A stretch of DNA of 64,000 nucleotides from Escherichia coli O127:H6 str. E2348/69 (GCF_000026545.1 NC_011601.1), one strand, 5' to 3'; shown: positions 48,001 through 51,000, counted from the first letter of the stretch. Program-made: the numbers.

Positions 48001-51000
48001 CTGACGGCGATTTTGTGGCAGTGGCTACGGTGGCTGTCAGCGCCGCAGGTTAACAGGACGATACTCATCATTTGCCCCGGTTATCCGGGGCTTTTTTTCA
48101 GGTGGAGAACATGATGTTTCTGAAACAGGGCACGTTTAATTATGAAAAGCAGTCCGTGGTGCTCAGTGAGCTGTCCGGGCTGCAGAGAATTGAATATCTG
48201 GCGTTTGTTCAGCAGCGAACGGCAAAGTTTGATGCCGAAGAGGGAGAACTGCCGGAGGCTGAACGACAGATTGCTTTTCTGCGGATGGGGATGGATATCA
48301 ATGCCTGGCTGGTTTCCCGCTCACTGTGGAATGCGGATCAGTCTAAGGATGTAGAGACGCTTTGCGCATCCGTTATTACAACATGGTCGTATGATGCCCT
48401 GGGTGCGGGGGCGGAGATGGTTCTGTCGCTGAGCGGTATGGGGACCATTGATAATGCCGGGGATGATGAGCATGAGGCGCTGACGCCGGAAAAGTCCTGA
48501 CGCGGGAAATGCAGTTTGTCATGCGGCTTGCCCGGGAGTTCCGGCGGGCAGACTGGCGGCGGATGCTGTCGGAAATGTCGGCCACTGAGCTTGGTGAGTG
48601 GGGCGATTATTTCCGGATGCAGAGCTTCAGTGATGTGTGGATGGATGCGCAGTTTGCCTCGCTGAAGGCATTGATCGTGAGAATGGTGTCCGGCAGCAGT
48701 GATGCTGCGGTGGCTGATTTCAGCCTTTTACCGGAAGAGAACGGGATACCGGAGCGAACGGACGAAGAACTGATGCATCTTGGGGAAGGTATTTCCGGAG
48801 GTGTGCGTTATGGACCAGATAGCCAACCTGGTCATTGATTTGGGGATTGATGCGGCAGAGTTTAAAAATGAAATCCCCCGTATCAAAAACCTTCTGAATG
48901 GTGCAGCCAGCGATGCAGAACGGTCTTCTGCCCGTATGCAGCGTTTTATGGAGCGTCAGACTCAGGCCGCCCGGCAGACAACGCAGGCGGCTTCTTCGGC
49001 TGCAACAGCCGCATCCGTCCATGCGCAGACGGTGGAGAAGAACGCACAGGCTCATGAACGCATGGCCCGCGAGGTGGAGAAAACCCGCCAGCGCATGGAG
49101 GCGCTGAGCCAGAAAATGCGCGAGGAACAGGCGCAGGCCATGGCTCTGGCGGAGGCTCAGGATAAAGCGGCTGCTGCGTTTTATCGTCAGATTGACAGTG
49201 TGAAACAGGCCAGTGCGGGGCTGCAGGAATTACAGCGTATTCAGCAGCAGATCCGACAGGCCAGAAACAGTGGCGGGATTGGTCAGCAGGATTATCTGGC
49301 GCTGATTTCTGAGGTTACGGCGAAAACCCGTGTTCTTACACAGGCTGAGGAAGAGGGTACCCGACAGAAAGTGGCGTTTATCCGTCAGCTTAAAGAGCAG
49401 GCAACCCGCCAGAATCTTTCATCTTCTGAGTTGCTTCGTGCTAAGGCTGCCCAGCTGGGGGTAAGCAGTGCTGCAGAAGTGTATATCCGCAAAATGGAGC
49501 AGGCAGGAAAAGCCACGCATTCGCTGGGTCTGAAAAGTGCAGCGGCCCGCCAGGAGATAGGCGTTCTGATAGGTGAACTGGCCCGCGGCAATTTAGGGGC
49601 GCTGAGGGGATCCGGGATAACGCTGGCTAACCGTGCCGGATGGATAGACACACTGATGTCACCGAAAGGCATGATGCTGGGCGGGGTTATTGGCGGTATT
49701 GCCGCAGCTGTCTATGGTCTGGGTAAAGCCTGGTATGACGGTCAGAAGGAGGGGGAAGAATTTAACCGCCAGCTGTCGCTGACGGGGCATTATGCCGGAG
49801 TCACTGCCGGGCAGCTGTGGACGCTCAGTCGTGCTATTTCCGGGAATGGTATCACGCAACATGCTGCAGCCGGTGCGCTGGCTCAGGTGGTGGGGAGTGG
49901 TGCATTTCGTGGAAACGATATCGGTATGGTGGCGAGAGCTGCCGCACAGATGGAGCGATCGGTTGGCCAGTCGGTCAGCGATACCATAAGTCAGTTTAAG
50001 CGGCTGAAGGATGATCCTGTAAATGCCGCGAAGGCTCTGGACAATGAGCTGCATTTTCTTACTGCCACTCAGCTTGAGCAGATACGCGTCCTTGGGGAAC
50101 AGGGGCGGTCCAGTGATGCGGCACGGATAGCCATGTCTGCACTGGCAGAGGAAACCGGTCGGCGTACTGCGGATATTGATAATAACCTCAATGCGCTGGG
50201 CAGTACGCTGAAGTATCTGTCTGATTTATGGAGTCGTTTCTGGGATGCGGCCATGAATATTGGTCGTGAAGACTCGCTGGATGAACAGATTTCCGCTTTA
50301 CAGGAGAAAGTGTCGCGGGCGAAAAGACTCCCCTGGACGGCATCATCTTCTCAGGTTGAGTACGATCAGCAGCGTCTTAACGAGCTTCAGGAAAAAAAAC
50401 GCCAGAAGGATTTGCAGGATGCAAAAGAGCAGGCAGAGCGGAATTATCAGGAGCAACAGAAACGCCGTAATGCTGAAAATGCTGCACTGAACCGGATGAA
50501 TGAAACGGAAGCAGCACGACATCAGCGTGAAATTGCGCGTATTAATGCCATGCAGTACGCCGATCAGACTGTCAGGGATGCGGCGATACAACGTGAAAAT
50601 GAACGTTACGAGAAAGCCCTGGCATCCGGTAAGAAAAAAACACGCGAAACCCGTAATGATGAGGCCACCCGGTTATTGCTGCAGTACAGTCAGCAACAGG
50701 CACAGGTGGAAGGACAGATTGCTGCTGCCAGACAGTCAGCAGGCATTGCCACGGAAAGGATGACAGAAGCGCATAAACAGCTTCTGGCTCTGCAGCAGCG
50801 CATCAGCGACCTGGACGGGAAAAAACTGACGGCAGATGAAAAGAGTGTGCTGGCCCGTAAAGATGAACTGATTCAGGCACTGACGCTGCTGGATGTAAAA
50901 CAGCAGGAGCTTCAGAAACAGCGGCACTCAACGAGCTGAAGAAAAAAACAATTCAGCTGACCAGTCAACTGGCTGAAGAAGAGCGTGCTCAGCGTCAACA

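What the first reader, a model, noticed from the sequence alone, without database searches (positions are those of the whole stretch)
48470..48515. Programmed -1 frameshift region for G/GT tail chaperone
The T reading frame opens at 48476 in the -1 frame and overlaps the last 8 codons of G, which ends at 48500, the arrangement used by lambdoid phages to make the G-T fusion. The overlap contains GGAAAAG but I could not identify a canonical X-XXY-YYZ heptamer with certainty.
Basis: partly seen in the sequence, partly recalled or inferred. Interest (0 to 1): 0.2.

Follow-up and report, generated by a model that had tools for sequence, protein, structure and literature searches.

The report
Phage tail chaperone G/GT frameshift site
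This is the ordinary lambda-type programmed -1 ribosomal frameshift that joins tail-chaperone genes G and T, in an E. coli prophage, and its only unusual point is a conserved, slightly non-canonical slip sequence (G_GAA_AAG instead of lambda's G_GGA_AAG).

Summary
G (48114-48500) is followed by a -1 frame that opens at 48476 and runs to 48838, a 25-nt overlap containing GGAAAAG at 48488-48494. G and T match lambda gpG and gpT at equivalog level and lie between the major tail gene V and the tape-measure gene H.

The heptamer is in register (CCG GAA AAG) and aligns base-for-base with lambda's G_GGA_AAG. G_GAA_AAG is kept in Gifsy-1, Gifsy-2, Fels-1 and about 64 IMG/VR relatives down to 47% protein identity. 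The lambda clade keeps G_GGA_AAG in all 79 readable loci.

T-frame coding constraint begins right after the heptamer. The ATG at 48509 that public annotation uses as the T start is Met, Leu or Arg in relatives. I found no conserved downstream RNA structure. A weak Shine-Dalgarno-like purine block about 10 nt upstream may stimulate slippage, but that test was inconclusive.

The heptamer is a near-cognate variant: tRNA-Glu must re-pair on GGA through a middle-position G·U.

The window comes from EPEC E2348/69. Its tape-measure and J genes are frameshifted pseudogenes, so the site is intact but probably idle here. This is a new member of a known kind, of low to moderate interest.

The parts
47310..48053 (+). 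Major tail protein gene V, upstream neighbour of G
   Evidence: Pfam Phage_TTP_12 at 1.2e-66 plus Big_2. It corresponds to cdtI gp10, annotated 'major tail protein'.
48074..48098 (+). Terminator-like GC hairpin with a T7 run between V and G
   Evidence: Scan result: 7 GC pairs, loop of 4, then TTTTTTT. A 'terminator' is annotated at the same place in phages Ayreon and mEp460.
48114..48500 (+). Gene G, tail assembly chaperone, 128 aa, the 0-frame product
   Evidence: Pfam Phage_TAC_2 at 6e-40. NCBIfam TIGR01674 phage_lambda_G scores 184.9 bits against a cutoff of 74.45. PGAP uses the same start, as gpG. GGAG lies 6 nt upstream of ATG 48114.
48474..48477 (+). SD-like GAGG 10 nt upstream of the heptamer, a possible weak stimulator (inferred)
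   Evidence: Read from the sequence. Across 15 lineages the anti-SD affinity peaks 6-10 nt upstream of the heptamer. The test is inconclusive.
48476..48500 (+). G/T overlap, the only stretch where a -1 shift can join G to T
   Evidence: The T frame has a TGA at 48473-48475 and the G stop is at 48498-48500.
48488..48494 (+). Slip heptamer G_GAA_AAG (P-site GAA Glu, A-site AAG Lys)
   Evidence: It aligns with lambda G_GGA_AAG. It is conserved in Gifsy-1, Gifsy-2, Fels-1 and in IMG/VR relatives down to 47% identity.
48494..48838 (+). T segment, translated in the -1 frame only as the C-terminal part of GT. The predicted fusion is 241 aa: ...EALTPEK|VLTREMQF...
   Evidence: Pfam Phage_tail_T at 5.1e-15. 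TIGR01715 phage_lam_T scores 134.1 bits on fusion residues 132-238. T-frame codon periodicity starts right after the heptamer.
48509..48511 (+). ATG used as the T start in public annotation; not a conserved initiator
   Evidence: The aligned codon is Met, Leu or Arg among 15 lineages. cdtI and PGAP start T here.
48810..51865 (+). Tape-measure gene H, downstream neighbour, frameshifted in this window
   Evidence: Pfam TMP_2 and TMP_4. There is a 1-nt deletion relative to cdtI near 50921. PGAP flags it 'frameshifted'.

Best explanation
A small fraction of ribosomes translating gene G slip back one nucleotide on G_GAA_AAG (48488-48494). They then continue in the T frame to 48838 and make a 241-aa G-T fusion (...TPEK-VLTRE...). 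The remaining ribosomes terminate at 48500 and make gpG. By homology with lambda, many copies of gpG and a few of gpGT coat the tape-measure protein, and the T part recruits the major tail protein. Neither protein ends up in the virion.

The slip is driven mainly by tRNA-Lys re-pairing from AAG to AAA, the A_AAG tetramer. The P-site tRNA-Glu re-pairs from GAA to GGA, keeping its first and third pairs and forming a G·U pair in the middle.

Shown here: the gene layout, the homology, the phase, the positional identity with lambda's site, the clade-wide conservation, the lack of a conserved T start, and the absence of a conserved downstream structure. Inferred: that the fusion is made, its level, tandem rather than single-tRNA slippage, and any role of the upstream SD-like GAGG.
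For: Family and layout:
- Pfam and NCBIfam hits to lambda G and T are well above their cutoffs.
- The gene order is V-G-T-H.
- The T frame is -1 relative to G and is closed by a TGA immediately upstream of 48476.

The slip site:
- The window's G_GAA_AAG and lambda's G_GGA_AAG occupy the same alignment columns, and both are followed by GK-V in the T frame.
- G_GAA_AAG is present in Gifsy-1, Gifsy-2 and Fels-1, which share only 68-70% nucleotide identity with the window.
- It is also present in about 64 IMG/VR loci. Their preceding codon is CCG, GCG, CTG or GAG, always ending in G. The distance to the G stop varies from 1 to 5 codons.
- The lambda clade keeps G_GGA_AAG in 79 of 79 readable loci.

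T is read by frameshift, not by its own start:
- T-frame third-position variability is 0.78/0.55/1.23 bits (codon positions 1/2/3) already in the 14 columns between the heptamer and ATG 48509. That ATG is Met, Leu or Arg in relatives.

Function in real phages:
- An identical slip region occurs in the phage cdtI genome and in the isolated phage Ayreon.
- The Gifsy-1 and Gifsy-2 RefSeq records already describe their T homologues as made by translational frameshifting.

Literature:
- Lambda G/GT is a proven -1 frameshift whose product ratio matters for tail assembly (PMC5009743).
- A_AAG is the most shift-prone tetramer in E. coli (PMC4066793).
Against: - The heptamer is not X_XXY_YYZ.
- In a reconstituted E. 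coli system, AUG GAA AAG was chosen as the unfavourable control and gave mainly 0-frame product (PMC6924986).
- A_AAG without a stimulator is barely above background in vivo: 0.147% against 0.112% (PMC4066793).
- No downstream structure was found. Window folds gave z = -1.24 and +0.62, and the consensus fold was -2.43 kcal/mol.
- The efficiency may therefore be much lower than lambda's.
- No protein data exist for this locus.
- In this genome H and J are pseudogenes, so the product has no working partner.
Confidence: 0.86

Rival explanations
1. T is a separate gene translated from its own ATG at 48509, as cdtI, PGAP and most phage records annotate it. No frameshift is needed.
For: An ATG exists at 48509, and public records call a 109-aa 'tail assembly protein T' from it.
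Against: The aligned codon is Leu or Arg in 10 of 15 lineages, including Gifsy-1, Gifsy-2, Fels-1 and lambda. T-frame coding constraint and the conserved GK[VIA]L.. peptide extend upstream of the ATG as far as the heptamer. The nearest purine run, GGGAA, abuts the ATG with no spacer. In lambda, T sequences are made only as the gpGT fusion (PMC5009743).
Confidence: 0.05
2. Frameshifting occurs at this site by slippage of tRNA-Lys alone on A_AAG, in either the A or the P site. The GAA codon and the G before it contribute no re-pairing. On this reading the site is a tetramer, not a heptamer.
For: Relatives L059-L066 carry G_GCA_AAA_TAG at the aligned position. There tRNA-Ala cannot re-pair beyond its first base, yet the arrangement is conserved. 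PMC6924986 regards tRNA-Glu on GGA as non-cognate. Known tetramer sites such as IS1222 G_CGA_AAG work this way (PMC5009743).
Against: Heptamer position 1 is G in every lineage, although it is the third base of four different codons: CCG, GCG, CTG and GAG. From my own recollection of E. coli codon usage (third-base G about 0.5, 0.35, 0.5, 0.3 for Pro, Ala, Leu, Glu), the chance expectation is roughly 0.03. That base is not translated in the T frame if the slip is at this heptamer. Its conservation fits selection for first-position pairing of the P-site tRNA. Tetramers need strong stimulators (PMC4066793), and none was found downstream.
Confidence: 0.3
3. The G-to-A change has disabled the lambda-type slip site. 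GT is no longer made, and T is a decaying remnant.
For: G_GAA_AAG was poorly slippery in vitro (PMC6924986). This particular prophage has frameshifted H and J genes.
Against: The variant heptamer is fixed across many diverged lineages and in the genome records of phages cdtI, mEp460, Ayreon, Tritos and HannyBb. The T frame stays open at about 120 codons and shows third-position-biased variation. The same module at 95% identity or more is in 1839 of 5426 complete E. coli genomes.
Confidence: 0.03
4. The fusion arises by transcriptional slippage of RNA polymerase on the A run rather than by ribosomal slippage.
For: The site contains four consecutive A residues.
Against: From my own knowledge of transcriptional slippage, known cases in bacteria need runs of about 7-9 or more identical bases, so four A is too short. 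The homologous lambda site has only three A and is a proven ribosomal event (PMC5009743).
Confidence: 0.01

Closest known systems
Bacteriophage lambda G/GT programmed -1 frameshift (Levin, Hendrix and Casjens 1993; Xu, Hendrix and Duda 2004, 2013, 2014, as cited in PMC5009743)
   Same: The genes lie between V and H. The proteins match at equivalog level (TIGR01674, TIGR01715) and share 35% identity over the fusion. T is in the -1 frame. The slip site is at the same aligned position and is followed by GK-V. Neither has a conserved downstream structure.
   Different: The heptamer is G_GAA_AAG, not G_GGA_AAG, so the P-site tRNA is Glu and needs a middle-position G·U pair. The G stop is 1 codon after the heptamer here and 5 codons after it in lambda. 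The open overlap is 25 nt here and 64 nt in lambda. T is shorter, with a single GGVRYG motif where lambda has two.
Gifsy-1, Gifsy-2 and Fels-1 G/T genes of Salmonella Typhimurium LT2 (RefSeq NC_010392, NC_010393, NC_010391)
   Same: They have the same ACG/ACA CCG GAA AAG (T/C)CC TGA junction and the same -1 arrangement, with 55-61% protein identity. The Gifsy-1 and Gifsy-2 records already call T 'part of gpG by translational frameshifting'.
   Different: Only nucleotide divergence, at 68-70% identity. None of these records gives a slippage join or names the slip site.
A_AAG tetramer and hexanucleotide-type -1 sites (IS1222 G_CGA_AAG; Bacillus subtilis cdd A_CGA_AAG), reviewed in PMC5009743
   Same: The A-site tRNA-Lys re-pairs from AAG to AAA, and the P-site codon cannot re-pair cognately.
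   Different: Here the P-site tRNA keeps two Watson-Crick pairs plus a G·U pair. From my own knowledge, the insertion-sequence sites rely on downstream structures, which are absent here.
E. coli dnaX A_AAA_AAG frameshift signal
   Same: The A-site codon is AAG, read by the single tRNA-Lys. An SD-like element lies about 10 nt upstream: GAGG at 48474-48477 here and AGGGAG in dnaX (spacing from my own knowledge; the dnaX stimulators are described in PMC6924986).
   Different: dnaX has a strong downstream stem-loop and shifts about 50-80% of ribosomes. No such structure exists here, and the SD-like element is weak (-5.6 kcal/mol).

Membership tests
Lambda-type tail assembly chaperone pair G/GT made by -1 PRF | Two overlapping ORFs located between the major tail (tube) gene and the tape-measure gene | tested here: met
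   The order is V 47310-48053, G 48114-48500, T frame 48476-48838, H from 48810.
Lambda-type tail assembly chaperone pair G/GT made by -1 PRF | Sequence homology to lambda gpG and gpT | tested here: met
   Phage_TAC_2 at 6e-40 and Phage_tail_T at 5.1e-15. TIGR01674 scores 184.9 bits and TIGR01715 scores 134.1 bits, both above their curated cutoffs.
Lambda-type tail assembly chaperone pair G/GT made by -1 PRF | The downstream ORF is in the -1 frame and lacks its own conserved initiation signal | tested here: met
   The phase was checked. The codon aligned with ATG 48509 is Met, Leu or Arg in relatives, and T-frame constraint starts at the heptamer.
Lambda-type tail assembly chaperone pair G/GT made by -1 PRF | A canonical slippery heptamer X_XXY_YYZ in the overlap, in 0-frame phase | tested here: not met
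   The heptamer is G_GAA_AAG, so positions 1-3 are GGA and not XXX. It is in the right phase and at lambda's position, and it retains the A_AAG tetramer. This is a near-cognate variant rather than an absence of a slip site.
Lambda-type tail assembly chaperone pair G/GT made by -1 PRF | Evolutionary conservation of the slip site beyond that of the flanking sequence | tested here: met
   Columns GG.AAA are invariant in 15 lineages, while the 40 nt upstream cannot be aligned. The site is conserved down to 47% protein identity.
Lambda-type tail assembly chaperone pair G/GT made by -1 PRF | Production of a minor G-T fusion protein (about 1:30 in lambda) that is required for tail assembly | not testable with these tools
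   This needs proteomics, a western blot or a reporter assay. The ratio for lambda is quoted from PMC5009743.
dnaX/IS-type stimulated -1 PRF (slip site plus flanking stimulators) | A stable downstream stem-loop or pseudoknot 5-9 nt after the slip site | tested here: not met
   The MFE z-scores were -1.24 (106 nt) and +0.62 (51 nt). The consensus structure of 15 lineages was -2.43 kcal/mol with no helix near the site. There was no Rfam match.
dnaX/IS-type stimulated -1 PRF (slip site plus flanking stimulators) | An upstream SD-like element about 10-14 nt 5' of the slip site | tested here: inconclusive
   GAGG lies 10 nt upstream. Anti-SD affinity peaks 6-10 nt upstream across lineages, at a mean of -4.0 to -4.4 kcal/mol. 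The comparison with a phage-region null gave Mann-Whitney p = 0.0035. However, the lineages are related, the linker is rich in acidic, purine-rich codons, and several lineages have only a 3-base match.

The most novel reading that the evidence does not exclude
G_GAA_AAG is a bona fide, naturally selected -1 PRF heptamer used by a large clade of enterobacterial lambdoid phages, present in about a third of complete E. coli genomes. Biochemists have used the same sequence as a non-slippery control. If this reading is right, the site works through a middle-position G·U pair of the P-site tRNA-Glu. It may be helped by a positionally conserved weak SD-like element, and it may set a lower G:GT ratio than lambda does. 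To my knowledge, and in the searchable library, this variant has not been described as a phage slip site. Xu et al. 2004 could not be read and may already list it.
Probability: 0.3. Interest if true: 0.4.

Novelty: new member of a known kind. Interest (0 to 1): 0.22.

Why it matters
Mainly this is an annotation correction. In cdtI, in PGAP-annotated E. coli genomes and in most related phage records, T is called as a free 109-aa protein from a non-conserved ATG, and the 241-aa GT fusion is missing. The module is present in about 34% of complete E. coli genomes.

For frameshifting specialists, the clade-wide fixation of G_GAA_AAG gives a natural test case. It bears on how much P-site mispairing a programmed -1 site can tolerate, including a second-position G·U pair that current thermodynamic models have not sampled (PMC6787027). 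It also bears on how low GT expression can be while tails still assemble.

Tried and rejected
Searches for stimulators:
- Downstream stimulatory structure: single-sequence folds were not better than shuffles. The 15-lineage consensus fold was negligible. Rejected.
- Rfam scan of 48000-49000: only sub-threshold hits, all on the V-G terminator hairpin. No known frameshift element.

Alternative slip sites and mechanisms:
- Other slip sites within 48476-48497: no other Z_ZZN or X_XXY_YYZ motif occurs in phase among GCG CTG ACG CCG GAA AAG TCC.
- Slippage at UCC next to the stop: tRNA-Ser cannot re-pair on GUC. Rejected by inspection.
- Transcriptional slippage: four A is too short.
- Independent T initiation: rejected because the start is not conserved.

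Statistics:
- Motif enrichment: GGAAAAG alone is not over-represented in the window, 12 against 9.2 expected. The motif count carries no weight.

Literature:
- Full-text searches for GGAAAAG or 'GAA AAG' together with slippery and phage or tail found only PMC6924986, where the sequence is a negative control. One search on the bare heptamer was uninformative.
- Xu et al. 2004 (Mol Cell) is not held. I could not check whether it already lists this heptamer.

Not done:
- I did not run the large protein-database searches, structure prediction, or the genome or metagenome scans. The answer did not depend on them.

Full report
**Observation**

- The 0-frame ORF ends ... GAG GCG CTG ACG CCG GAA AAG TCC TGA, with the stop at 48498-48500.
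- The frame one nucleotide back has a TGA at 48473-48475. It is then open from 48476 to 48838.
- The overlap is 25 nt, and GGAAAAG lies at 48488-48494, phased G_GAA_AAG.
- The heptamer by itself means nothing: it occurs 12 times in the window against 9.2 expected.
- Its weight comes from where it sits. A -1 shift can only join the two frames between 48476 and 48497, and A_AAG is the only slip-prone motif in phase in that stretch.

**What the genes are**
- The upstream ORF is a lambda gpG homologue: Pfam Phage_TAC_2 at 6e-40 and NCBIfam TIGR01674 at 184.9 bits (cutoff 74.45).
- The -1 ORF is a gpT homologue: Phage_tail_T at 5.1e-15 and TIGR01715 at 134.1 bits (cutoff 77.35).
- They lie between a lambda-type major tail protein gene (Phage_TTP_12 plus Big_2) and a tape-measure gene (TMP_2, TMP_4).
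- G most likely starts at ATG 48114, which has GGAG 6 nt upstream and gives MFLK... as in lambda. PGAP uses the same start.
- The region is 100% identical to phage cdtI (NC_009514) and 98-99% identical to phages mEp460, Ayreon, Tritos, HannyBb and others.
- None of these records, nor PGAP-annotated E. coli genomes, annotates a slippage join. T is called as a free 109-aa protein from ATG 48509.

**Comparison with lambda**
- In lambda the proven slip site G_GGA_AAG is phased GCG GGA AAG. In the T frame it is followed by GK-VFDGELSFALKLAREM.
- In the window, CCG GAA AAG is followed in the T frame by GK-VLTREMQFVMRLAREF.
- The two heptamers occupy the same alignment columns.
- The window's site is therefore lambda's site with G changed to A at heptamer position 3.

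**Conservation**
- Gifsy-1, Gifsy-2 and Fels-1 share only 68-70% nucleotide identity with the window. They carry the same (ACG/ACA) CCG GAA AAG (T/C)CC TGA junction.
- Among 80 IMG/VR relatives, G_GAA_AAG is present in about 64 loci from at least ten distinct lineages, down to 47% protein identity.
  - The preceding codon varies: CCG, GCG or CTG. L072-L078 also carry a GAG GAA AAG motif 9 nt upstream of their aligned site.
  - The distance to the G stop varies from 1 to 5 codons.
  - The acidic linker upstream cannot be aligned.
- A sister group (L059-L066) has G_GCA_AAA or G_GAA_AAA directly abutting TAG.
- L072-L078 have both G_GAA_AAG and G_GCA_AAA_TAG.
- Lambda's own clade has G_GGA_AAG in 79 of 79 readable loci.
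- Each clade has therefore fixed its own heptamer. The common core is G_GNA_AAR.

**Evidence that T is read by frameshift and not from its own start**

In a gapless alignment of 15 lineages, variability follows T-frame codon periodicity. Mean entropy at codon positions 1, 2 and 3 is 0.52, 0.43 and 1.21 bits over columns 8-112. The pattern is already present (0.78, 0.55, 1.23) in the 14 columns between the heptamer and ATG 48509. The codon aligned with that ATG is Met in five lineages, Leu in seven and Arg in three. The Gifsy-1 and Gifsy-2 RefSeq records already describe T as produced by translational frameshifting.

**Mechanism**
- The A-site tRNA-Lys can move from AAG to AAA with full pairing. 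A_AAG is the most shift-prone tetramer in E. coli (PMC4066793; PMC5009743).
- The P-site tRNA-Glu (anticodon 3'-CUU*-5') moving from GAA to GGA keeps its first and third pairs and gets a G·U pair in the middle.
- PMC6924986 used exactly AUG GAA AAG as the unfavourable control to lambda's G GGA AAG and saw mainly 0-frame product.
- PMC4066793 found that A_AAG without a stimulator is near background: 0.147% against 0.112%.
- PMC6787027 notes that second-position changes have not been sampled in thermodynamic models.
- Either a low GT level suffices in these phages, or something helps the slip.

I found no downstream help.
- The window's downstream RNA does not fold better than shuffles (z = -1.24 and +0.62).
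- The 15-lineage consensus fold is -2.43 kcal/mol, with no helix near the site.
- Rfam has no match.

Upstream there is a possible stimulator.
- GAGG sits at 48474-48477, 10 nt from the heptamer. From my own knowledge, this is the spacing at which the dnaX SD-like element acts.
- Across lineages the anti-SD affinity peaks 6-10 nt upstream (mean -4.0 to -4.4 kcal/mol).
- This is stronger than at random positions of the phage region (Mann-Whitney p = 0.0035).
- The lineages are related, however, the linker is purine-rich, and several lineages have only three matching bases.
- I therefore treat this as an open possibility, not a finding.

One observation favours a real contribution of the P-site tRNA. 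Heptamer position 1 is G in every lineage, although it is the third base of four different codons. It would not be translated in the T frame if the slip is at this heptamer. From my recollection of E. coli codon usage, the chance expectation is roughly 0.03. The G_GCA_AAA clade, where tRNA-Ala cannot re-pair beyond that first base, shows that the rest of the P-site pairing is dispensable.

**Rivals**
- Independent initiation of T, a dead slip site with a vestigial T, and transcriptional slippage on four A residues are each contradicted by the comparative data above.
- Tetramer-only slippage remains a live sub-hypothesis about mechanism. It is not a rival to the frameshift itself.

**Context in this genome**
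- The window differs from cdtI by a 1-nt deletion in the tape-measure gene: cdtI CAGACGGCA, window CAGCGGCA, near 50921.
- That exact sequence is found in three independent assemblies of EPEC E2348/69.
- In those assemblies PGAP flags both the tape-measure gene and gpJ as frameshifted.
- The prophage's tail module is therefore decayed. The G/T signal is intact but probably has no working partners here.
- The same G/T module at 95% identity or more occurs in 1839 of 5426 complete E. coli genomes.

**Verdict**
- This is a member of the well-known lambda G/GT frameshift family that is not annotated as such.
- The one feature worth a specialist's attention is the clade-wide use of a near-cognate heptamer that in vitro work treats as non-slippery.
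- I could not establish whether that has been noted before. Xu et al. 2004 is not held, and searches of the library found no mention.

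Noticed in passing
window 48810-51865, deletion near 50921: The tape-measure gene H carries a 1-nt deletion relative to phage cdtI (CAGACGGCA becomes CAGCGGCA). This gives a stop at 50939 and a second ORF at 51023-51865. The same sequence is found in three E2348/69 assemblies, where PGAP flags H and also gpJ as 'frameshifted'. The prophage tail module appears defective.
   Followed up: yes
window 48074-48098: A strong terminator-like hairpin (7 GC pairs, loop of 4, then T7) lies between the major tail gene V and G. It is annotated as 'terminator' in phages Ayreon and mEp460. It could lower expression of G, T and H relative to V.
   Followed up: partly
window 46278-46304: A cluster of differences from cdtI (1-nt insertion plus 7 substitutions within 27 nt) falls at the 3' end of ORF 46036-46311. 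It changes that protein's C-terminus relative to cdtI gp07.
   Followed up: no
window 43414-45633: There is a long ORF for a ClpP-like prohead protease fused to a major capsid protein (PGAP name in the E. coli homologue). This head module is unlike lambda's and is joined to a lambda-like tail module.
   Followed up: no
L059-L066 (about 1896-1905) and L072-L078 (about 1873-1896): More distant relatives replace the site with G_GCA_AAA or G_GAA_AAA immediately followed by a TAG stop. L072-L078 have both G_GAA_AAG and G_GCA_AAA_TAG, 9 nt apart. This suggests slip-site turnover, and possibly stop-codon-assisted P-site slippage, in that group.
   Followed up: partly
L027 (about 1498-1830) and L051 (about 1501-1770): In two IMG/VR contigs the G/T region is joined directly to distal tail genes. 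In L027, T is fused in frame to an unidentified downstream sequence I did not check. In L051, G is truncated and followed by a sequence like minor tail protein L. These look like deletion derivatives of decayed prophages.
   Followed up: no
L063 / L089 (same contig, IMGVR_UViG_2695420576_000005): In this lambda-like contig, G is interrupted by a frame change upstream of the slip site (0-frame stop after ...NNSPEQALV). It is either a pseudogene or a sequencing error.
   Followed up: no
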